The notes: generated by a model not told the origin, from the sequence alone. Counted from the first letter of the stretch, positions 2-32,000 are shown. The stretch is 32,000 nucleotides of DNA from an archaeon (GCA_024275415.1 JAJRZD010000039.1:1-32000), one strand, 5' to 3'. Numbers and translations are program-made.

Positions 2-727
2 GATGGAGATTATATATGTGCTTTGATTACTTTAGATCCAGCAATCTTTGAACTCTCTGGTATGTTGATAAGACTGGACAGTGATGGAAAGTATATGTGG
101 AACAAGAGTTATGAGGATTATCAATGGGAGTCCCTCCACATCGCGCAAACAGTAGACGGAGGCTACATTCTTGCTGGTGATGTATGGTCATCGAATGTGA
201 GCAATGATGGCTGGTTGATAAAGACTGATCCAAATGGGGTCATAGAATGGGCTCAGACTTTTGGGGGAACTGACACTGATAGAGTATATTCGTTCCAGCA
301 GACGACCGATGGGGGATACGTTCTTGCTGGAGAAACAAGATCCTTTGGCGCAGGAAGAGCTGATGGTTGGGTTGTGAAGACAAATGCGAGTGGGTTCATA
401 GAATGGTATAGGACTTTTGGCGAGGCAGACGATGATAGGTTCGTATCAGTCCAGCAGACGACTGATGGGGGATACGTTCTTGCTGGAGAAACAAGATCCT
501 TCGGCGCAGGAAGAGCTGATGGTTGGTTGATTCGGTTGAATGCGCCAGCAAGATCCCCGGGGTTCTCTACTTGGATTCTCTCTTCTGTCGCTTCAGTTGT
601 AATAATCACTGTCGCCATATATCTGATGGAGTATTCAAAGAAAAGGTCACTAGACAAGAAAACTGCTGACTTTTTCTCGTTCGAGGTATTAGGAGTGAAG
701 TACACACGCGCATACCGAGTCCACTGA
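2..727 (+). CDS. TxDGGY-repeat (beta-propeller-like) surface protein with C-terminal membrane anchor, 5'-truncated
   Basis: Frame is open from position 2 (DGDYICALITLDP...). Three ~52-aa repeats of the form (Q)TxDGGYxLAG...DGWxxxxx. Hydrophobic segment WILSSVASVVIITVAIYLM followed by basic residues. Confidence 0.75.
   Translation, partial: DGDYICALITLDPAIFELSGMLIRLDSDGKYMWNKSYEDYQWESLHIAQTVDGGYILAGDVWSSNVSNDGWLIKTDPNGVIEWAQTFGGTDTDRVYSFQQTTDGGYVLAGETRSFGAGRADGWVVKTNASGFIEWYRTFGEADDDRFVSVQQTTDGGYVLAGETRSFGAGRADGWLIRLNAPARSPGFSTWILSSVASVVIITVAIYLMEYSKKRSLDKKTADFFSFEVLGVKYTRAYRVH
295..526 (+). repeat. Near-identical intragenic direct repeat, 76 bp at 295-370 and 451-526
   Basis: 74/76 nt identical; both differences are synonymous (acc/act, ttt/ttc); offset is 156 nt = 52 codons. 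Confidence 0.95.
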
Positions 728-24272: not shown

Positions 24273-25025
24273 TCATGTGATTGACCTCAACTTCTGGTGC
24301 AGATCTTGAATCGTGTCTATGATCAGTGTCCCCTCCGGAGCCAAATGTTGCTGCTCTGGGTCGCACCACGTTATGAGTACAGGGAGCATCCCTGCTCTCT
24401 GCGCGGCTACTACATCATCCCCGACTTTGTTCCCGACGTAGGCACAACGGAACGGATTAGAGCCAAGATCCTTGGCAACCGTAAGGAGCATGTAAGGAGA
24501 AGGTTTTGCATAGCCGGGCACATGAGAATACTCGACTGCCCCGAAGAGATGCCCGATGCCGTCAGCGATAAGATATTTCCGTGGGTCACCAAACCTGTTT
24601 GAGGCGATGCCAAGCTTGTAGCCCAAGGAGTGGAGATATTCCAACCCTTCTTTGCACCCATCCACAAGGTCAGGCTTGATGCGTGACAGATACTCGTCCC
24701 ACTTTGACTGGTATGCCTCAGCAAGCATATCGATATCTCCATCAATGCACAGGGTTTCAAGTAACATCCGGTCATACTGTATCCAAAGATCCCGTGAAGG
24801 TTCCCAGTGCGAATCCACACCATGATTTAGCATGTACTTCACAAGCCAATCGTTGCGTTGCGTGTGCAATGCAGTTTCCATGTCCTCATCGGTAATCCTC
24901 TCGCATTCATGAATCCCAGCATCAATCAGATGCTTCCGTGCTATCTGGACAAGGTGCTCGTGTGACTTGTACAGGGTGCCACCAAGGTCGAATATTATCG
25001 TGTCAATCTCATTTCGTAACATCAT
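24273..25025 (-). CDS. HAD-superfamily hydrolase
   Basis: FDLGGTL, GIASN, KPSP and VGNKVGDDV. Likely start is ATG 25025/25022. Confidence 0.88.
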   Translation of the reverse strand: MMLRNEIDTIIFDLGGTLYKSHEHLVQIARKHLIDAGIHECERITDEDMETALHTQRNDWLVKYMLNHGVDSHWEPSRDLWIQYDRMLLETLCIDGDIDMLAEAYQSKWDEYLSRIKPDLVDGCKEGLEYLHSLGYKLGIASNRFGDPRKYLIADGIGHLFGAVEYSHVPGYAKPSPYMLLTVAKDLGSNPFRCAYVGNKVGDDVVAAQRAGMLPVLITWCDPEQQHLAPEGTLIIDTIQDLHQKLRSIT

Positions 25026-25059
25026 CTTCGCAACACACAGAACACGGTTCCACATTAGG

Positions 25060-25246
25060 ATTTGGGATTGCTAACATCTGCGAGAAAGCTGGACATCTCG
25101 TGGTAGGTGATTCTATACGACCGGACAGTACTATGACACAAGGTCGGACGACACGCGATACTGATCACACGGGGGCGTTACCAGTGCCGTCCTTGGGAGG
25201 ACAAGACTCTGGTGTCCTAATCTGTCCAGATTACAATGAACGGTGA
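25060..25246 (+). repeat. Dispersed ~190-bp structured element, copy 1
   Basis: Aligns with 30873-31068 at 149/179 columns from TTGCTAAC to the end, plus a 10-nt and a 1-nt indel. It lies between divergent HAD and TPR genes. Confidence 0.93.
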
Positions 25247-25293
25247 ATGTGAATCCTTTTGAATAGTCGAGTTAGTATTCCAGTGTGATTGGA

Positions 25294-26442
25294 ATGAGCA
25301 CTCCTGAGCAATCACTGAAGACAGTCGAAGAACACCTGAAGAACCATCCTGATGATGCGTCTGCATGGAACATCAAGGGTGTCATATTAGCAACGCTTGG
25401 CGAGTTTGGTCCTGCATTACGTGCCTTGAATCAAGCAATCAAGCTGAATGCTCAGTTACAAGAGGCATACGCCAACAAAGGAAGGGTCTTGCTGGCTCTT
25501 GGCCCTGACAATGCAACTGAGGCGCTGAAGGCATTCGACAAGGCACTCCATCTGAAGCCAAGCGACTATGGCACGCTGAAGGACAAGGTATTCGCACTAC
25601 GAGCATTGGGTAGGTTGACTGAAGAAAAGAAATGCTTGGAAACCCTTGTACAGGAAATGTCTGATGATTGGAAAGCGTGGATGAGGATTGGCAACATCCA
25701 GCTTGAACAGGGTGATTTCAAGCAGGCTGACGGAAGTTTTGGGAAGGTTCTGGATATCGAGCCAAACCATGCAGGTGCCATGGTTCATCGCGCTATAGCA
25801 ATGTCCATGATGGAAAAGTGGAGCAGTGCCATCAAAATCGCAAAAAGAGCATGCGATGTAGCACCAAACGACGTGGAAGTATGGCGTGTCCTTGGAGATA
25901 TCAATATCAGGGCTGGAAAGTATCGTGCAGCACTCAAGGCTCTCAAAAGGGCCAGTAAAATCAATCCCGAGGATGCTCAAGTCGAACTATTGATGGGAAT
26001 CGTCGAGTACAGGTCAGGACAACTAAGAGAAGCCATCAAGCACTTCAAACGCGCAACAATTCGGGATCGTAAGAGTCATCGTGCCTATCGAAACATGGCA
26101 CTTGTTTCCATGGAGATGGAAGACTGGCAGACTGCAATGAACGCATGGGAGCGATTCATTCGACTTGTAAACAACGATGCTGAGGCATACGACGCCCTTG
26201 CAACAGTCTGTGCTAGGATTGATGATTTCTGTGCTGCTTCTGAAGCATGGGAGAAAGCACGGAAACTATTCAAAAAAAGGAACGACACAGACAATGCATC
26301 GAGGGTCACTGAGCTAGGTCGAGCGGCTCGTATCAATTGCTCCAGACAGAAGAAGGCAGAGAAGGCCAGACGGGAGCACGAGAAAGCTACGAGGAGCTTC
26401 TCAGACCGCCACAGGTTGCGAGGTAAGAAGAAGAAGCGGTAA
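25294..26442 (+). CDS. Tetratricopeptide-repeat protein with basic C-terminal tail
   Basis: Multiple 34-aa TPR units (AWNIKG...AIKLN, AYANKG...ALHLKP, VWRVLG...KINP); ends RLRGKKKKR. Start 25294 or GTG 25285. Confidence 0.9.
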   Translation: MSTPEQSLKTVEEHLKNHPDDASAWNIKGVILATLGEFGPALRALNQAIKLNAQLQEAYANKGRVLLALGPDNATEALKAFDKALHLKPSDYGTLKDKVFALRALGRLTEEKKCLETLVQEMSDDWKAWMRIGNIQLEQGDFKQADGSFGKVLDIEPNHAGAMVHRAIAMSMMEKWSSAIKIAKRACDVAPNDVEVWRVLGDINIRAGKYRAALKALKRASKINPEDAQVELLMGIVEYRSGQLREAIKHFKRATIRDRKSHRAYRNMALVSMEMEDWQTAMNAWERFIRLVNNDAEAYDALATVCARIDDFCAASEAWEKARKLFKKRNDTDNASRVTELGRAARINCSRQKKAEKARREHEKATRSFSDRHRLRGKKKKR

Positions 26443-26463
26443 GCAGGAAAAGAAACAATCGGC

Positions 26464-27273
26464 TCACTCGACAGAGTCGTTGATGAGCGACTCGATGAAG
26501 AACTCGATAGCGAACCTATCCTGGGTCATCTCGATGTACCACGGAGACTTGAAGTTCAACTCGTTCATGATTTCCTTGACATCTAACCCGCGGACATGGA
26601 GTTCACGTACCAACTCGTGTGTTTCTTTCAAGTAGTCGATACGGACTTTGATGTGCTCGTCAGGTGCATGGACAGCACCCTTGTGAGAGTCGAAGAGAAC
26701 CTCTATGTCCAAACACCGAATCCGTTCCATGGTCGCTATCATAAGAGGGATGTTCTCCTCGGGCATTGCTATGTATTTCTTAGATGGGAGAGGGATCGCG
26801 TCTGCTGAAATGAACCATTTTCGATTCGACTCATAGAACCCGATCATGTCCTCGAAGTGACCAGGGAGTTCCACCACCTCGAAATGGAAATCTCCTACTT
26901 CGAACATGCGTGGTGTTTCTGATACGTCATCGATGGGTGAAGGTTGTCCCCATACATACTTGAAAAACTCGCCGAGCTCTGGAGGGTTCCGTAGTAAACT
27001 CATACTGGATCCCCATGCATGAATGTCCGCGTCTTTCGCCAGCACATCAACACATCCGCAGTGATCCTCATGTGCATGTGTGATGTACACATCAGAGATT
27101 TGAGTGGTCTTCAGATAGGCGGCAAACTCATCCCGCGCATTCGCACAGCCTGCGTCGAAGAGCACATTGCCTATTTGATAGCAGTACACCCACAATATCG
27201 GCTTCCCATCGGGACCGGGAGTAGCGGTTCGTATCCCAGTAACTTCATCTCCAAGTGGCTCCAGTTCAAACAT
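26464..27273 (-). CDS. Metallo-beta-lactamase-fold hydrolase
   Basis: THAHEDHCG, PGH, ADA and SHKG metal-binding motifs. Confidence 0.9.
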   Translation of the reverse strand: MFELEPLGDEVTGIRTATPGPDGKPILWVYCYQIGNVLFDAGCANARDEFAAYLKTTQISDVYITHAHEDHCGCVDVLAKDADIHAWGSSMSLLRNPPELGEFFKYVWGQPSPIDDVSETPRMFEVGDFHFEVVELPGHFEDMIGFYESNRKWFISADAIPLPSKKYIAMPEENIPLMIATMERIRCLDIEVLFDSHKGAVHAPDEHIKVRIDYLKETHELVRELHVRGLDVKEIMNELNFKSPWYIEMTQDRFAIEFFIESLINDSVE

Positions 27274-27408
27274 GATAGTATGTGGTAATCCGAAGGGATA
27301 AATGGCTTCTTCGGTGAGCGCGCTGTGCTTTTCTATGCAGTCTAACCGCCGCTTCGCAATATGTAGTAAGAAGACTCAAACCTGTTCGTTTTAGTATCAG
27401 GGACAGTT

Positions 27409-28299
27409 ATGCCCGACAATGACCAACGAATCAGGTATGCTACCAAGGGGGCTGATGGTAAGTTCAAACCACCATTCCCAGTAAGTCCAGTGGAATTGAC
27501 CGAACTGACTCGTAAGATGGTATGCAGAGAGGAGAACGGAACACACCTTAGAAAGTACACTAGCTTTTACGGGGTCGGTGTATATGGGGGGATAGCAACA
27601 GCGTATTCAGTAGGATGTAATTTTCGATGTGTGTTCTGCTGGGTCGACTGGAGCCGAGACTGGCCAGAACGATATGGATCATTCTATACGCCCGGGCAAG
27701 TGTACCAACGACTCCGTGAGGTCATGAGTGGATGTGGTTATAGGCGAGCACGGATTAGTGGGGCAGAGCCCACTCTATGTCCCGAACATCTTTGTTCAGT
27801 CCTTGACCTAGTTCATCGAGAGCGGGAAGCCTTTGATCTATTTGTTATAGAAACCAATGGAGTTGTGATCTCGCAAGAGAGAGGCTTCGCCGAACGACTG
27901 GAAAAATACGCATCCCGTGATAGAACCCGCGGAACAGTAGGACATGTCCGTCTATCGATAAGGGGCGGGCAACCGGAAGCTTTCGAAGAGAAGACCGGAT
28001 GCACGCAAGATTCCATGGAACTCCCGTTCATCGCAGCTCGGAGATTGTGGGATGCTCAAGTCTCATTCCATGTTGCAGTTGTTGTGGATGAACGATTCAC
28101 ATCGCCCGATGAGGAGGAGAGAATCTATGAGAGATTGGCGGACATCGACCAATCGATAGCAAGTTCTGTCGAGCGTGAGATCCTAGACCCATATCCTCAT
28201 GCACTGGTACGTCTTCGAGCAGTAAGAAGAGAAGATATCACAGGGAACAAGATCTCTAGAAAAGAGGAGGCAGTCCTCCGAAAGAAACCTCCTGCATGA
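27409..28299 (+). CDS. Radical SAM protein
   Basis: CNFRCVFC (CxxxCxxC), RISGAEPTL and IETNG. Confidence 0.9.
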   Translation: MPDNDQRIRYATKGADGKFKPPFPVSPVELTELTRKMVCREENGTHLRKYTSFYGVGVYGGIATAYSVGCNFRCVFCWVDWSRDWPERYGSFYTPGQVYQRLREVMSGCGYRRARISGAEPTLCPEHLCSVLDLVHREREAFDLFVIETNGVVISQERGFAERLEKYASRDRTRGTVGHVRLSIRGGQPEAFEEKTGCTQDSMELPFIAARRLWDAQVSFHVAVVVDERFTSPDEEERIYERLADIDQSIASSVEREILDPYPHALVRLRAVRREDITGNKISRKEEAVLRKKPPA

Positions 28300-28301
28300 T
28301 T

Positions 28302-29426
28302 CTAAGGGGCAGCTCGATGGAGAACGGGTGGGGCGAACTTTCGGAGCCTCCGTAACCCCACAACCCGGTCTTTTCTGCCAAGCTTTGCATCCTGAAGGGC
28401 GATTTCCATGAAGCGGATGGCCTCGTCGTATGCCTTTCTCGGTACAGGGAATGGGACGCCATCCTTCCCGCCAAAAGCAAAGGTCATACGAACAGGGTCT
28501 ATCCATGAGGGAGCGTCCCCATAAATCATCTCTGATATCAATGATAGTCCTCTAATGGCAGCAGGGCCAATACCCTGTATGAACAGGAGTTCCTCATAAT
28601 CAGACGGTTGTGTTTCATACGCCTTTCGAACTGCGTTCCAATTCATCCGTTTTGGAATGACCTTGTAGGAAGGAATCTGCCTTTCGGGAGCATGTCCCTC
28701 CATCCACGGGATGAGGGTCGTTTCACCATATGCCTTGATATCATCAAGCATCCGACGGATTCGAATCGGTTCCTCCTTTACGATGTCCAGTGACGTTTTC
28801 CTGCAGTCATAGGACTCCTTTGCTGTCATATCAAGTGCAGCGTTCTTTATCTCCCCCGAAATCATCCCCGAATGAGGTTCATCGATATAGACTCGGAAAT
28901 ATCCCGAGGTCCAGTGGTACCTCCGTGCGTCACCTGCTTTGCTATCCATCCCTTGCTGCACAACTGTCCAGTTCTCTTCGGTATCGACAAAGAACATGTG
29001 CTGATAGAGAGAGTAACCATCCTGTATCGCAGCATTATCGACCTTTGCCACCTTTCGGCTGATCTCTGCTAACTCATTCCCATCAAGACCAAAGTCTGTG
29101 AGGGCATAAAGTTGATCAGGCGTCTTCTTGGATGCCAGACCTTTTCCGCCCGCAGCCACGATGCTGTGTTTCTCCCAAGTCAGGACAGAGCGCAGGACAC
29201 CACAAGTGACAGTAGTACTCCCGCTGGAGTCCCAATCATATCCCAACACATTGGAGAGTGCCTGAAAGTAGACAGGATCCGCTAACCGATGAAGGAGTTC
29301 CTTTGTCCCAAACTCGTCCACTATGAACTGACAAAGCGCATCGGCCATAGGCATCATCCGTTTGACAAGCCAGTGGGGTGCTGTGCCCGGATGTAGCTTG
29401 AGGTCTGCAATCCCGCCTCTTTTCAT
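28302..29426 (-). CDS. DUF763-family protein
   Basis: ADLKLH.G.AP.WL, LGYDWDSSGSTT, GYSLYQH, VVQQGM, ARRYHW, HhH-like IQGIGP and FAFGGKDGVPFPV. Confidence 0.88.
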   Translation of the reverse strand: MKRGGIADLKLHPGTAPHWLVKRMMPMADALCQFIVDEFGTKELLHRLADPVYFQALSNVLGYDWDSSGSTTVTCGVLRSVLTWEKHSIVAAGGKGLASKKTPDQLYALTDFGLDGNELAEISRKVAKVDNAAIQDGYSLYQHMFFVDTEENWTVVQQGMDSKAGDARRYHWTSGYFRVYIDEPHSGMISGEIKNAALDMTAKESYDCRKTSLDIVKEEPIRIRRMLDDIKAYGETTLIPWMEGHAPERQIPSYKVIPKRMNWNAVRKAYETQPSDYEELLFIQGIGPAAIRGLSLISEMIYGDAPSWIDPVRMTFAFGGKDGVPFPVPRKAYDEAIRFMEIALQDAKLGRKDRVVGLRRLRKFAPPVLHRAAP

Positions 29427-29667
29427 CGTTCATTACCTAGTATATGCAGTATGTACCACTGATAATAAGCATGACAGCATTCCGAAACTATTTTTAGCAG
29501 TCCGACACCCAATGAATTGGTAATAGCATTTCTCAATTCGCCGAAATGTCTTTCTTCGATTAACTGATACAGCTGGCAATCTTTTTATCCTAAAGAAGGC
29601 AACAGATACGTAATGTTTTACCGGAAGATTGTCCGGTGGAATTCTGTTATCATCAGAAGTGATACGT

Positions 29668-30204
29668 ATGACTGAGATTGCTGAATGGAATGAAGCCGTG
29701 GATTACAACGAGTTCCTCGAGCAAGCAAGAGAGAACGTAGAACTCATGAGGGCGAGGGTCGATGACCTGTCCTTGACTGAAGAAGAAGAGAACATGATCA
29801 GAAGTATCCAGAACGAGATCAAGATCCTTGTAATTGGAACAGACCGTTGCAATGACAGTGCAGGAGTCTTTCCAGTCCTAGCTCGCATAGCATCGATCGC
29901 TCCAAAAGTAGAGCTTCGAGTCCTTGATAGTGACAAATATGCAAGATTCCATCAGCAGTTCCGGGTTAATGGCAAGCGAAAGACACCAGTAGTTCTCTTT
30001 CTCAGTTCAGAGCTGAACGAACTCTGCAGATGGGTTGAACGGCCAAACGCCGTCTATCAAGTGGTCAATGAGAAGAACCTCTCGATGGACGACCGACGCG
30101 GTACATTGCGGAAGCTGTACAGTGACCCAGAAATATTACGCCAACTGTTTGGTGAGCTCAAATATCTTCTCATCAGAGCAGACTTGTTATTAGGACGCAG
30201 TTGA
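29668..30204 (+). CDS. Thioredoxin-fold protein with CxxS motif
   Basis: ILVIGTDRCNDS...LRVLDSD...NGKRKTPVVLFL...WVERP. Start 29668 or TTG 29629. Confidence 0.75.
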   Translation: MTEIAEWNEAVDYNEFLEQARENVELMRARVDDLSLTEEEENMIRSIQNEIKILVIGTDRCNDSAGVFPVLARIASIAPKVELRVLDSDKYARFHQQFRVNGKRKTPVVLFLSSELNELCRWVERPNAVYQVVNEKNLSMDDRRGTLRKLYSDPEILRQLFGELKYLLIRADLLLGRS

Positions 30205-30205
30205 A

Positions 30206-30862
30206 ATGGGCGAGGATCTTTCCAAGGATAACTGGGAGAATCCTGACAAGGTAAAGGACTTCGCCAGAAACTATGCTGCCAGATATGAGGGTGTGTTCTG
30301 GGAACGGCTTGAAAGCATTGTCCCAGATATGCGCAGTCCTGTAATCGCGGATTTCGGATGTGGCCCGGGGTTATGGCTGGTCGATGCAGCTGCCAGGTTT
30401 CAGGCTACGAAGATATACGGGCTGGACGCGAGTCGGACGATGCTTGAATATGCAGGCACCATCCTCAAGGATAAAGCATCACATATCGAACACGAGCTTC
30501 ACCACGTTAATTTTGATACTGACCCCATACCCCTTGAGGAAAGTATTCTCGACCTTGCCTTCGGTGGTTATATGCTTCACGAGATGGCAGACGCGCTAGC
30601 ATTTCTCAGGAGTATTTTGCTGCACATAAAAAAGGGAGGTATCTGTGTCGTCTTCGATTTTGTTTCAGGGGGCGTAGAACAGTTCGTTCAACAGATGGTT
30701 GCCAGAGGGTGGGATGAAGAGCAGGCCATAAACAGATATCCACATATGTGTAAATACTCTGCTGCAGACATAGAGAGGATGATGAAGGATTCAGGATTTC
30801 GGATAGTAGGAGCCAGTGTCATAGAGAAAGTACGTGCTATCACAGTGGGAGTAAGAGAATGA
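30206..30862 (+). CDS. Class I SAM-dependent methyltransferase
   Basis: ADFGCGPG, GLDASRTML, LHEM and KKGG...VFD. Confidence 0.88.
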   Translation: MGEDLSKDNWENPDKVKDFARNYAARYEGVFWERLESIVPDMRSPVIADFGCGPGLWLVDAAARFQATKIYGLDASRTMLEYAGTILKDKASHIEHELHHVNFDTDPIPLEESILDLAFGGYMLHEMADALAFLRSILLHIKKGGICVVFDFVSGGVEQFVQQMVARGWDEEQAINRYPHMCKYSAADIERMMKDSGFRIVGASVIEKVRAITVGVRE

Positions 30863-30872
30863 AGACTGATGC

Positions 30873-31068
30873 ATTCGGGTTGCTAACATTTGCGAGAGAG
30901 CTGGACAAAGATAGATATCTCGTGGTAAGTGATTCTTTGCGGCTGGACAGTGCTAGGACACAAGGTCGAACGACACGCGATGTTGAACACACAGAGTCGT
31001 TCTCAGTACCTTCTCTAGGAGGGCAAGACTCTGGTGTCCAGACTTGTCCGGGTTACAATGAACGGTGA
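30873..31068 (+). repeat. Dispersed ~190-bp structured element, copy 2; overlaps the 69-aa ORF 30859-31068
   Basis: Same orientation as copy 1, with a 10-nt insertion (AAGATAGATA). It fills the gap between the methyltransferase and priL. Confidence 0.93.
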
Positions 31069-31073
31069 GGAAG

Positions 31074-32000
31074 ATGGCTACTCGGCTTCAGCTTCTCAGA
31101 TATCCATTCTCACGAGAAGCCCGTCAAGCGATGCAACGAGTGGCAAGAGACCTTGGAACGCTTATCAACATTGTCGAGGCACAAGAGGGAAACTATGTTA
31201 TTCGTGAAGCAACAGAAAGAGTCTACGCTGCATTGAATCAGGAAGAGATAGTGACTGTCAATACGAACGACGACAGGGACTTCTTGATCTACTCCACGGC
31301 ACGTCTGATTGTGGAGAAACTTGGCGACAACAGACTGAAAGAATATCAGGCAGAAGCCGAGTCCAAGGCAGTGAACAAGCATCTCGGCAATGAATCGGAC
31401 GACTTTGTGATGCATCTTTGCAGGACAAGCTTTGATTGGGACGTAGAGAGGGTTGGGGGGAGCACAAAGAAGTCCGCCCTTCCGGACTATCTGCAACGAT
31501 TTGACTTCCAAATGTCCTTCATCAATTTCCTTGAGATAGCGCCACGGTTCCATGCGGACGAATGGAAGCTCGTCAATCGCATAGTGGAGCGCGGAAAAGT
31601 TCCAGTGAGGGGGTCAGAACTTCGACGCCTGATATCGGAAAAGTTCAAAATTCTCATCCTCAACAGCACGTTGTCTGTGCCGACTCTACCCCGAAACCTC
31701 AGTCTAGCAGTCCAGCAAATCGAGTCGGATCTCAAGGTCAAGCTGAAACGGAGCGAGCCAATCAAGTTCACAGAAAAGACGGTCACAGCATTCCCACCTT
31801 GCATTACTGCGATGCATCAGACTGCACTTGAAGGGAAGAACCTGTCACATCATGCCCGCTTCACCCTTGCATCGTTCCTCCTGAAGATAGGGATGTCAGA
31901 GGATGAGGTGCTTGGTATCTTCAAATCCGCTCCAGATTTTGTCAGGGGTCTTGCTGAGTATCAGGTCAGGCACATCGCTTCCAAGTCAGGAGGCGAGGGA
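31074..32000 (+). CDS. priL: DNA primase large subunit, 3'-truncated; absent from the ORF track
   Basis: ATG 31074, frame open to the window end: MATRLQLLRYPFS...WKLVNR...FPPCI...NLSHHARFTLASFL...PDF...YQVRHI. Confidence 0.93.
   Translation, partial: MATRLQLLRYPFSREARQAMQRVARDLGTLINIVEAQEGNYVIREATERVYAALNQEEIVTVNTNDDRDFLIYSTARLIVEKLGDNRLKEYQAEAESKAVNKHLGNESDDFVMHLCRTSFDWDVERVGGSTKKSALPDYLQRFDFQMSFINFLEIAPRFHADEWKLVNRIVERGKVPVRGSELRRLISEKFKILILNSTLSVPTLPRNLSLAVQQIESDLKVKLKRSEPIKFTEKTVTAFPPCITAMHQTALEGKNLSHHARFTLASFLLKIGMSEDEVLGIFKSAPDFVRGLAEYQVRHIASKSGGEG

What the first reader, a model, noticed from the sequence alone, without database searches (positions are those of the whole stretch)
25060..31068. 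Unannotated ~190-bp intergenic element present twice, folding into a conserved nested structure
Copies at 25060-25246 and 30873-31068 are in the same orientation, 5.8 kb apart and ~83% identical, with sharp boundaries and unrelated flanks. By-eye pairings shared by both copies: GCGAGA/TCTCGT, with the 10-nt insertion of copy 2 falling in this loop; GGACAG with (C/T)TGTCC; an invariant GACACAAGGTC/GACTCTGGTGTC helix; and ends TTGCTAAC with (G/A)TTACAA. Copy 2 has a perfect inner GAACGAC/GTCGTTC stem that is weaker in copy 1. No transposase, integrase or reverse transcriptase is in the window. It could be a new ncRNA family, a non-autonomous mobile element mobilised in trans, or a recombination site. 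The span between the copies is a patchwork of small unrelated genes.
Basis: partly seen in the sequence, partly recalled or inferred. Interest (0 to 1): 0.75.

Follow-up and report, generated by a model that had tools for sequence, protein, structure and literature searches.

The report
Gene-less transposon carrying guide-RNA scaffold
The two ~185-bp repeats are copies of a miniature, gene-less transposon present about 70 times in this Thorarchaeota (Asgard archaeon) genome; it keeps the ends, a promoter-like box and the folded guide-RNA part of a larger IS607-type element whose gene encodes an unusually large TnpB/Cas12f-like nuclease, so it is a clean new example of an already described kind of element.

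Summary
The two window copies (25064-25244 and 30877-31066) belong to a family of about 71 copies in this 3.5-Mb Thorarchaeota genome, and the same unit occurs in at least 13 related genomes.

It is not a free-standing ncRNA or a recombination site. It is a miniature IS607-type transposon (MITE/PATE-like).
- Its last ~65 nt equal the 3' end and right end of a ~720-aa TnpB/Cas12f-like gene in 21 of 23 related loci.
- Its first ~50 nt resemble left ends that precede serine-recombinase tnpA genes in relatives.
- Empty sites in a same-genus genome show insertion at GG with no target duplication.

The 3' ~105 nt fold into co-varying helices with two pseudoknots. On 95 sequences, 91.6% of cells pair against 29-40% in slid registers. 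One pseudoknot joins the last bases before the flank to a hairpin loop, as in solved TnpB omega-RNA. A conserved TATA-like box sits about 25 nt upstream of this domain.

This assembly has no intact copy of the nuclease. Expression could not be tested. Other agents of this scan noted the same nuclease family with mini-copies in other Thorarchaeota genomes.

Verdict: a new family of a known kind.

The parts
25064..25244 (+). Copy 1 of the miniature element (B-type subfamily), from the GGG of the left junction to ...AACGG(T) of the right junction
   Evidence: nhmmer E 2e-44, model 3-185. Empty site in G005:C33. 18 of 20 tested base pairs intact.
30877..31066 (+). Copy 2 of the miniature element (B-type, with a 10-nt insertion in the 5' half)
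   Evidence: E 3e-36. The empty site in G005:C33 reads ACT-GG-TGATTGA-GATGG; the filled site reads TTC-GG[GTTGC...AAC-GG]TGAGGAA-GATGG. 18 of 20 pairs intact.
25064..25099 (+). Left-end module of copy 1: terminus GGG(A)TTGC, the ACA(G/T)CTG block and the AGCTGGACAT block. Presumed serine-recombinase (TnpA) recognition region.
   Evidence: These blocks are conserved in 88 copies from 14 genomes. Similar blocks lie directly upstream of tnpA in L194, L188 and L186 and at L103:98-155. The function is inferred.
25110..25118 (+). TATA-like box of copy 1 (ATTCTATAC; family consensus TTTATATA). Copy 2 has a degraded version at about 30932-30939.
   Evidence: It is one of the best conserved blocks of the 5' half (model 49-56). 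Promoter function and a start site ~25 nt downstream are inferred from general knowledge of archaeal promoters, not shown.
25142..25244 (+). Structured 3' domain of copy 1 (omega-RNA-like scaffold). P2: 25142-25147 with 25161-25166. P3: 25170-25175 with 25206-25211. P4: 25180-25184 with 25193-25197. Pseudoknot 1: 25199-25203 with 25223-25227. Pseudoknot 2: loop 25186-25189 with terminus 25241-25244.
   Evidence: Covariation test on alignment A2. Per-sequence test of P2. Columns mapped to the window.
30964..31066 (+). Structured 3' domain of copy 2 (same helices)
   Evidence: Row G000_L079 of alignment A2.
25245..25264 (+). Predicted guide-equivalent flank of copy 1 (about 16-20 nt read through from the scaffold). 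It lies in the 5' untranslated region of the TPR-protein gene.
   Evidence: Inference by analogy with TnpB omega-RNAs, whose guide is the DNA just outside the right end (PMC10097598; bioRxiv 10.1101/2023.11.20.567912). Not tested.
31067..31086 (+). Predicted guide-equivalent flank of copy 2. It overlaps the likely ATG (31074) of the DNA primase large-subunit gene.
   Evidence: Same inference. Gene identity. Start codon by comparison with the G005 orthologue.

Best explanation
The repeat is a gene-less miniature derivative (MITE, PATE-like) of an IS607-type insertion sequence of Thorarchaeota. The full-length form of that element carries a ~720-aa TnpB/Cas12f-fold nuclease gene and, in some copies, a serine-recombinase tnpA.

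The miniature has three parts:
1. A left end of ~50 nt with conserved blocks that probably bind the serine recombinase.
2. A TATA-like box, probably the nuclease gene's own promoter.
3. About 105 nt that fold into a hairpin (P2), a helix (P3) enclosing a second hairpin (P4), and two pseudoknots, ending exactly at the right end (...AACGG).

SHOWN:
- Multi-copy dispersal and empty sites.
- GG junctions without target duplication.
- Identity of the 3' module with the 3' end of the nuclease gene.
- A co-varying fold.
- An intact catalytic triad and Cas12f/TnpB fold in the partner protein.

INFERRED:
- The element is cut out and pasted at GG sites by a TnpA serine recombinase supplied in trans.
- It is transcribed from its TATA box into an omega-RNA-like guide whose last 16-20 nt are read from the flanking DNA.
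- In genomes that hold the nuclease, this RNA lets the nuclease cut the empty site after excision, so that the copy is restored by recombination (the homing/retention role shown for other TnpB elements).

This assembly contains no intact nuclease gene. The ~70 copies here, including the two in the window, may therefore be mostly relics that no longer do anything.
For: Copy number and boundaries:
- ~71 nhmmer hits, 52 full length, with sharp ends and unrelated flanks.
- No recurrent neighbouring protein.
- No orientation bias to genes (22 co-oriented against 28 opposite), and mostly intergenic.

Link to the nuclease:
- In this genome the 3' module overlaps the stop codon of a truncated TnpB-like ORF on contig C120 (nhmmer E 4e-13) and two further C-terminal remnants.
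- In relatives, 21 of 23 loci with the ~710-740-aa homologue have the module at the stop codon on the same strand.

Nature of the partner:
- PF07282 51-58 bits, and guided_TnpB NF040570 57-61 bits, which is below its cut-off.
- D486, E595, D688 and four Cys are invariant.
- AF2 model at pLDDT 75; Foldseek top hits are Cas12f, TnpB and Fanzor2 at probability 1.0.

IS607 type:
- The empty against filled site of copy 2 shows GG at both junctions and no duplication.
- The left junction logo is GGG.
- The literature reports a GG target, no TSD and no TIR for IS607 (PMC6188088), and a scaffold ending ...UCGG with a TGGG TAM for an IS607 TnpB (bioRxiv 10.1101/2023.11.20.567912).
- Serine-recombinase genes are preceded by the miniature's left-end blocks in three related loci.
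- The only intact IS607 in this genome (C57) starts GGGTTAACAACAG and ends ...AACGGT, like the miniature.

Fold (95 sequences, 14 genomes, 20 pairs):
- 91.6% of cells pair, against 29-40% when slid.
- 121 double-sided changes against 38 +/- 5 in shuffles, 0 of 500 reaching the observed value.
- P2 has >=6 bp in 58% of copies against 9% of shuffles, with many compensatory variants.
- The pseudoknot adjacent to the flank mirrors the guide-proximal pseudoknot of ISDra2 omega-RNA (PMC10097598).

A conserved TATA-like box lies ~25 nt upstream of P2. Gene-less PATEs that encode omega-RNAs are already described (PMC10055086).
Against: - No RNA data: no RNA run was available, so transcription, RNA ends and the guide are unproven.
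- The pseudoknot that involves the terminal ACGG is almost invariant, so it is supported by pairing (97% of cells) but hardly by compensatory change.
- The wobble bias for the sense strand is modest: G.U 73 against A.C 48.
- Similarity of the left end to tnpA-linked and tnpB-linked left ends is weak for each single case (E 0.003-0.09). In one lineage of full-length copies the shared sequence starts ~68 nt inside the presumed left end.
- The miniature shares detectable sequence with the nuclease gene's 3' region only over ~65-75 nt. The upstream part of its fold (P2, 5' strand of P3) has an equivalent hairpin in the gene but no clear sequence homology.
- This genome (92.9% complete) has no intact large nuclease. 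Its closest pair of copies is only 94% identical, so present-day function here is doubtful.
Confidence: 0.8

Rival explanations
1. Inert relics. The element is indeed a miniature of the TnpB transposon, but in this genome the copies are dead DNA. They are not transcribed into a working guide, are not mobilised any more, and keep the fold only because they were copied from functional master elements not long enough ago for it to erode.
For: - No intact large nuclease in the assembly, only a C-terminal 313-aa piece and a 31-aa piece.
- The best identity between two copies is 94% and the median is far lower.
- Copy 2 has a degraded TATA-like box (compared).
- Both window copies already have 2 of 20 pairs broken.
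Against: - 32 of 38 copies in this genome keep at least 18 of 20 pairs.
- The three subfamilies differ by compensatory changes.
- The assembly is fragmented at repeats (127 contigs, several copies at contig ends), so an intact nuclease copy could be unassembled.
- An intact IS607 tnpA with matching termini is present on C57.
Confidence: 0.3
2. Exapted guides. The dispersed copies act as trans-encoded guide RNAs for another TnpB-type protein of the host: the truncated C120 protein, the 411-aa C57 TnpB or the 563-aa C82 protein. They would bind or cut the DNA next to each copy, for example repressing the downstream gene as TldR-type nuclease-dead TnpB relatives do.
For: - 11 of 52 copies, including both window copies, lie within 100 nt upstream of a co-oriented gene, so the flank-derived guide would match that gene's 5' region.
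- Three TnpB-type ORFs exist in the genome.
Against: - No orientation bias overall: 22 co-oriented against 28 opposite.
- A guide copied from the adjacent DNA would target its own locus. In known systems that locus is protected because the element interrupts the TAM-target junction.
- The C57 element's own 3' region is unrelated to this scaffold.
- The catalytic triad of the cognate family is intact, not dead.
Confidence: 0.05
3. A free-standing structured ncRNA or cis-regulatory leader family unrelated to transposition.
For: - Conserved, co-varying fold.
- No Rfam match.
- Both window copies sit just upstream of genes.
Against: - Empty sites in a related genome.
- About 70 copies with random flanks and random orientation.
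- The 3' module is physically part of a TnpB-like gene's end in 21 of 23 related loci.
- IS607-type junctions.
Confidence: 0.03
4. Recombination sites bounding a mobile 5.8-kb cassette (a composite transposon or integron-like unit between the two copies).
For: Two direct copies 5.8 kb apart with small unrelated genes between them.
Against: - The same gene order is present on G005 contig C33 without either copy.
- The genes are ordinary chromosomal genes.
- About 70 further copies are scattered singly.
Confidence: 0.02

Closest known systems
PATEs / gene-less IS200-IS605 derivatives that retain an omega-RNA (Geobacillus stearothermophilus ISGst family; Meers et al. 2023, PMC10055086)
   Same: - No protein gene.
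- Keeps both transposon ends and the guide-RNA scaffold of a TnpB element.
- Many copies per genome.
- Needs transposase and nuclease in trans.
   Different: - Here the ends and junctions are of IS607 (serine recombinase, GG target, no subterminal Y1 hairpins), not IS200/IS605. No Y1 TnpA is found in the genome.
- The cognate nuclease is ~720 aa, not ~400 aa.
- The miniature carries its own conserved TATA-like box.
Omega-RNA (reRNA) of TnpB, e.g. ISDra2 (116-nt scaffold + 16-nt guide; cryo-EM, PMC10097598), and the IS607-family CboIStron TnpB omega-RNA (bioRxiv 10.1101/2023.11.20.567912)
   Same: - Encoded at the 3' end of the nuclease gene, overlapping the stop codon and ending at the right end.
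- About 105-nt multi-stem scaffold.
- The bases just before the flank form a pseudoknot with an upstream segment.
- The scaffold ends ...ACGG (Cbo: ...UCGG), and the left junction reads NGGG (Cbo TAM: TGGG).
   Different: - No sequence or covariance-model similarity to any Rfam family, including TnpB-linked ones.
- A second pseudoknot (GGACA/UGUCC) crosses P3.
- RNA existence, guide length and TAM are untested here.
IS607-family insertion sequences (IS607, IS1535, ISC1926; Chen et al. 2018, PMC6188088)
   Same: - GG at both junctions and at the target.
- No target duplication and no terminal inverted repeats.
- Short conserved subterminal motifs.
- tnpA (MerR-like HTH + serine recombinase) upstream of tnpB in autonomous-type copies (L194).
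   Different: - Most copies in Thorarchaeota lack tnpA.
- The tnpB partner has ~300-400 extra N-terminal residues.
- Gene-less miniatures outnumber full copies.
Asgard aCas1-associated TnpB groups (Cas1H-Asgard-1/-2; Altae-Tran et al. 2023, PMC10691335)
   Same: Asgard-restricted TnpB lineages with conserved non-coding regions downstream of tnpB.
   Different: - No Cas1 (PF01867) was found in five relatives rich in this nuclease.
- The transposase seen next to it is a serine recombinase.
- The downstream motif described in that paper (GTTCACTCA after a hypervariable region) is not what is seen here.

Membership tests
TnpB omega-RNA (OMEGA guide RNA) | Encoded at the 3' end of a tnpB-type gene, overlapping its stop codon and ending at the transposon right end | tested here: met
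   C120 in this genome. 21 of 23 related loci. The right boundary of copies in different flanks is ...AATGAACG(G).
TnpB omega-RNA (OMEGA guide RNA) | Structured scaffold whose guide-proximal bases form a pseudoknot with an upstream segment | tested here: met
   Loop GCCG with terminal CGG(U): 97% of cells paired, but mostly invariant. The other helices carry compensatory changes. Compared with ISDra2.
TnpB omega-RNA (OMEGA guide RNA) | A transcript exists whose 3' part is a ~16-20-nt guide read from the flanking DNA, and it is bound by the nuclease | not testable with these tools
   No RNA run was listed. No biochemical data.
TnpB omega-RNA (OMEGA guide RNA) | Cognate protein is a TnpB/Cas12-fold nuclease with an intact RuvC site | tested here: met
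   Scores to the curated TnpB models are below their cut-offs, so it is a divergent relative.
MITE / PATE (non-autonomous miniature of an insertion sequence) | Short, no conserved ORF, many dispersed copies with unrelated flanks | tested here: met
   The open frames across the two window copies are shifted by the 10-nt indel.
MITE / PATE (non-autonomous miniature of an insertion sequence) | Both ends shared with a larger, gene-bearing element | tested here: met
   The right end is clear. The left end is weaker but recurs at L103, L194, L188, L186 and C120. One lineage starts further inside.
MITE / PATE (non-autonomous miniature of an insertion sequence) | Presence/absence polymorphism (empty sites) | tested here: met
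   Same-genus genome G005 contig C33 lacks both window copies. The comparison is between species (~70% DNA identity), so only copy 2 gives a clean junction.
IS607 family | Insertion at a GG dinucleotide, GG at both ends, no target duplication, no terminal inverted repeats | tested here: met
   Terminal pairing is not above shuffles. Rule taken from PMC6188088.
IS607 family | Autonomous members encode a serine-recombinase TnpA with an N-terminal HTH | tested here: met
   A 201-aa TnpA (PF00239 78-88 bits) between left-end blocks and the large tnpB in G051:C24, and two more loci with left-end blocks. Not met inside this genome for this element: the only tnpA is in the C57 IS607, with a different interior.
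IS200/IS605 family (Y1 transposase) | Y1 TnpA in the genome and a TAM-specific insertion 3' of a tetra/pentanucleotide | tested here: not met
   No PF01797 match in the genome. The left flank is random beyond GGG.
Rfam RNA families (all 4227, including TnpB-associated motifs) | Covariance-model match at or near the gathering score | tested here: not met
   No match at gathering thresholds in the window. Only chance-level hits at E 6-8 on copy 1.
Asgard aCas1-associated TnpB elements | A Cas1-like gene adjacent to tnpB | tested here: not met
   No PF01867 match in five relatives that hold 4-15 copies of the nuclease. Divergent Cas1 could escape this model.

The most novel reading that the evidence does not exclude
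The ~720-aa Thorarchaeota protein, found so far only in one taxonomic family, may be a distinct enlarged branch of TnpB with an added N-terminal helical region and a compact ~105-nt double-pseudoknot guide scaffold. The promoter-bearing miniatures would be its natural stand-alone guide-RNA genes. If so, a genome with about 70 such genes would hold a large array of trans-acting guides: a CRISPR-array-like repertoire made of transposon copies, which some hosts might use for regulation or defence rather than only for transposon retention.
Probability: 0.1. Interest if true: 0.7.

Novelty: new member of a known kind. Interest (0 to 1): 0.35.

Why it matters
- It explains an abundant, unannotated repeat of Thorarchaeota genomes (about 13 kb in this genome), which otherwise invites over-interpretation as a new regulatory RNA.
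- It gives a well-delimited natural guide-RNA candidate (~105 nt, with a defined 3' end and a probable NGGG-type target-adjacent motif) for an enlarged, catalytically intact TnpB/Cas12f-like nuclease of Asgard archaea. This makes that nuclease's RNA and target rule directly testable.
- It adds an archaeal, IS607-type case to the picture that guide-RNA modules of TnpB elements spread on their own as gene-less miniatures. That picture bears on how transposon guide RNAs and CRISPR-type arrays may have separated from their nucleases.

Tried and rejected
- Rfam at gathering thresholds on the whole window, and at E <= 10 on copy 1: nothing meaningful.
- RNAalifold on the mixed-subfamily MAFFT alignment gave almost no structure, because the divergent middle part is misaligned. 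Minimum-free-energy folds of single subfamilies disagreed with each other. I therefore used column-pair statistics and per-sequence stem tests.
- Search for a recurrent neighbouring protein around the 71 copies: none.
- Y1 transposase: none in the genome.
- IS110-type DEDD transposase: only one sub-threshold match.
- Public RNA runs: no RNA holder was listed for window 24700-25600. This says nothing about expression.
- Sequence search of the N-terminal 470 aa of the nuclease in the ESM Atlas gave only unreliable hits at 0.90-0.93 with low shared-feature counts. PDB sequence matches cover only the C-terminal part.
- Cas1 next to the nuclease: not found.
- I considered that the motif IIVTHRDRLARF in the C120 ORF was a serine-recombinase remnant. 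I rejected this because it aligns to residues ~400 of the intact ~720-aa proteins, which have no Resolvase match.
- I considered that the C57 IS607 is the parent of the miniatures. I rejected this because only the terminal ~13 nt and the last 6 nt agree.
- A covariance model was not built, and complex prediction was not used.

Full report
OBSERVATION

The two copies exist as described. Junction analysis places them at window 25064-25244 and 30877-31066, both on the + strand and 5.8 kb apart. They are 78-81% identical, and copy 2 has a 10-nt insertion in its 5' half.

They are not a pair. The window is contig C16 of a 3.53-Mb, 127-contig assembly (92.9% complete). A BLAST-type search finds 35 matches there, and iterated nhmmer finds about 71, of which 52 are full length at 170-225 nt. 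All copies begin GGGTTG(C/A).AAC and end TACAAT(G/A)AACGGT, and the flanks are unrelated. At least three subfamilies are present; the window copies are 'B-type'.

Record titles of related contigs name the organism group as Candidatus Thorarchaeota, Asgard archaea.

WHAT IT IS ATTACHED TO

No protein family recurs beside the copies. However, some hits cover only the last ~65 nt of the model. One of these overlaps the stop codon of a TnpB-type ORF on contig C120, on the same strand (nhmmer E 4e-13). Two more lie on short C-terminal remnants of the same protein.

In other genomes of the same taxonomic family, this protein's homologues are open frames of ~710-740 aa. In 21 of 23 fetched loci the module sits exactly at their stop codon, on the same strand. 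The C120 copy is only the C-terminal 313 residues, and no intact copy is in this assembly.

The large protein:
- It matches TnpB/Cas12f models only in its last ~230 residues, and below the curated family cut-offs.
- It has an invariant D-E-D triad and four zinc-ribbon cysteines.
- Its AlphaFold model (pLDDT 75) hits Cas12f, TnpB and Fanzor2 structures at Foldseek probability 1.0.
- Its N-terminal half was found in 27 of 59 other genomes of the family and in none of 191 genomes from 27 other families of the phylum that were searched.

MOBILITY AND TRANSPOSON TYPE

The whole ~190-nt unit, not just its 3' part, occurs in at least 13 other genomes of about 11 genera.

The same-genus genome G005 has the flanks of both window copies contiguous, with only 70-78 nt between them. 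For copy 2 the empty site reads ACT-GG-TGATTGA-GATGG, and the filled site reads TTC-GG[GTTGC...AAC-GG]TGAGGAA-GATGG. This is an insertion at GG with GG at both junctions and no duplication. Across copies, the left junction is GGG preceded by random sequence.

This is the IS607 signature: a GG target, no target duplication and no inverted terminal repeats (PMC6188088). For an IS607-family TnpB the target-adjacent motif is TGGG and the guide scaffold ends ...UCGG (bioRxiv 10.1101/2023.11.20.567912).

Further support for the IS607 type:
- No Y1 transposase is in the genome.
- The one serine-recombinase gene belongs to an intact IS607 on contig C57. Its termini (GGGTTAACAACAG ... AACGGT) match the miniature's, but its interior does not.
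- In relatives, three serine-recombinase genes are directly preceded by the miniature's left-end blocks. In G051:C24 the order is left end, tnpA, C-terminal 514 aa of the large TnpB, right-end module.
- Cas1 was not found in five nuclease-rich relatives.

The copies show no orientation preference towards neighbouring genes (22 co-oriented against 28 opposite) and avoid coding sequence. The genes around the two window copies are ordinary: HAD hydrolase, TPR protein, MBL-fold, radical SAM, DUF763, thioredoxin-like, methyltransferase, primase large subunit. They are syntenic in G005 without the copies.

ANATOMY OF THE MINIATURE

Across 88 distinct copies from 14 genomes, the 5' half has four conserved blocks:
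- GGGTTG
- ACAGCTG
- AAC(C/T)TGGACAT
- A TATA-like box, TTTATATA, at model positions 49-56

The 3' ~105 nt are a structured domain. On a MAFFT alignment of 95 3' domains (77 miniature or partial copies and 18 nuclease-linked ends), I tested an explicit structure of 20 pairs:
- P3: CAGAGU/ACUCUG type
- P4: CCCAG/CUGGG hairpin
- Pseudoknot 1: G(G/U)ACA with UGU(C/A)C downstream of P3
- Pseudoknot 2: P4 loop GCCG with the terminal CGGU

Results of that test:
- 91.6% of cells pair, against 29-40% with the 3' partners slid by 1-3 columns.
- 121 cells have changes on both sides, against 38 +/- 5 in shuffles (0 of 500 reach the observed value).
- The covariation score is 0.262, against 0.03-0.07 for the slid registers.
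- P3 shows CAGAGU/ACUCUG, GGAGU/ACUCC, CAAAGC/GCUUUG and CAGAGC/GCUCUG.
- Pseudoknot 1 switches GGACA/UGUCC to GUACA/UGUAC in 25 sequences.
- Pseudoknot 2 is nearly invariant, so it rests on pairing rather than covariation.

A further hairpin, P2, lies just 5' of P3. It has at least 6 contiguous pairs in 58% of miniatures against 9% of shuffles, with many compensatory forms. The nuclease-linked copies have an equivalent 9-10-bp hairpin laid over the codons D-V-N-A-A-R-N-I-I-H-V.

Wobble pairs outnumber A.C mismatches 73 to 48, a modest sign that the sense strand is the folded one.

The pseudoknot formed by the bases immediately before the flank is the hallmark of the solved ISDra2 omega-RNA, and that paper calls it conserved among Cas12 guide RNAs (PMC10097598). 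Serine-recombinase transposition acts on double-stranded DNA, so the co-varying fold is best explained as RNA (inference).

ORIGIN (INFERENCE)

B-type miniatures share GGACAG...ATGACACAAG with the leader and first codons (M-T-Q) of many nuclease genes. Those genes carry a second, co-varying P4-like hairpin right after the start codon.

The miniature therefore probably arose by internal deletion that joined left end, promoter and leader to the last ~110 nt. The TATA-like box would then be the nuclease gene's own promoter, now placed ~25 nt before P2.

STATE IN THIS GENOME

- Copies keep on average 18.5 of the 20 tested pairs. Both window copies keep 18.
- The copies here may therefore be old and inactive. 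The fragmentation of the assembly at repeats leaves this open.

The hairpin of CCAG/CTGG type, the GACUCUG strand and a GGAC/GUCC pairing are real parts of the fold. The 5' GCGAGA/TCTCGT hairpin, the GGACAG(5')/CTGTCC pairing and the terminal pairing are subfamily-specific or at shuffle level.

COMPARISON WITH WHAT IS KNOWN

Gene-less PATE-type derivatives of TnpB elements that still encode omega-RNAs are described (PMC10055086). This is a new family of that kind, with three differences:
- It is IS607-type rather than IS200/IS605-type.
- Its cognate nuclease is enlarged and confined to one Thorarchaeota family.
- It carries its own promoter-like box.

There is no Rfam family for it.

Other agents of this scan described the same nuclease family with small guide-RNA-like copies in other Thorarchaeota genomes. 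I reached the same reading from this genome's data before seeing those notes. I did not test one note's claim of a paired giant gene.

VERDICT

The 'mobile element mobilised in trans' reading is right. The 'new ncRNA' reading holds only in the sense of a transposon guide-RNA module. The recombination-site reading is wrong.

Interest is moderate (0.35). The value lies in the clean definition of a candidate guide RNA and target rule for an unusual Asgard nuclease, not in a new kind of system.

Noticed in passing
G000 contig C57:14319-16150 (locus L087/L088), outside the window: An intact IS607 element: a 192-aa serine-recombinase TnpA plus a 411-aa canonical TnpB. Its termini (GGGTTAACAACAG ... 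GGCAACGGT) match those of the miniature family although its interior is unrelated. It could be the trans-acting transposase source in this genome.
   Followed up: partly
Related loci L091, L097, L098, L100, L102, L103, L105-L108: first ~15 codons of the ~720-aa ORF: A second hairpin of the same type as P4 (loop YGCCNNYC; stems UCCAG/CUGGA, UCCGG/CCGGA, GCGG/CCGC, so it co-varies) lies right after the start codon. The first ~87 residues of the protein are predicted disordered. The 5' end of the mRNA may be an RNA element, for example an autoregulatory nuclease-binding site, more than a protein-coding part.
   Followed up: partly
G000 contig C82:5252-6943 (locus L033): A 563-aa TnpB/Cas12-like ORF (PF07282 46 bits) with a long low-complexity C-terminal tail. 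It is only 25% identical to the C120 protein and not linked to the miniature family.
   Followed up: no
L114:2838-2905 versus L115, L116, L117: In one lineage of full-length elements, copies in three different flanks share sequence only from a GG ~115 nt upstream of the ATG. One copy (L114) has the miniature-type left end 68 nt further out. So either the left boundary differs between lineages, or a truncated master copy has spread.
   Followed up: partly
G000 contig C9:58939-59106, just upstream of the copy at C9:58543-58753: A 116-aa open frame with a sub-threshold match to the IS110 DEDD (RuvC-like) transposase domain (21.9 bits) lies directly 5' of a miniature copy on the same strand. It may be a remnant of a nuclease or transposase gene.
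   Followed up: no
window 205-516: Two tandem 156-nt units at 79% identity, with a related 26-nt motif also at 155-180 (families D2 and D3 of the repeat scan). This is probably a repeated protein domain. Not examined.
   Followed up: no
C-type copies, e.g. G000 C6:387-601, C56:6317-6531, C94:11420-11633: The C subfamily carries a ~25-nt insertion in the 5' half (...GGACA(C/T)TCGAAGTAAT.TATAG...). It also has two short direct repeats, AGACG/AACG, that change together to AGACT/ACTT in some copies. Unexplained.
   Followed up: no
window 31067-31086: Copy 2 sits in a ~30-nt spacer between a methyltransferase gene and the DNA primase large-subunit gene, apparently inside an operon. Read-through from the element would run into the primase start codon (ATG at 31074).
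   Followed up: no
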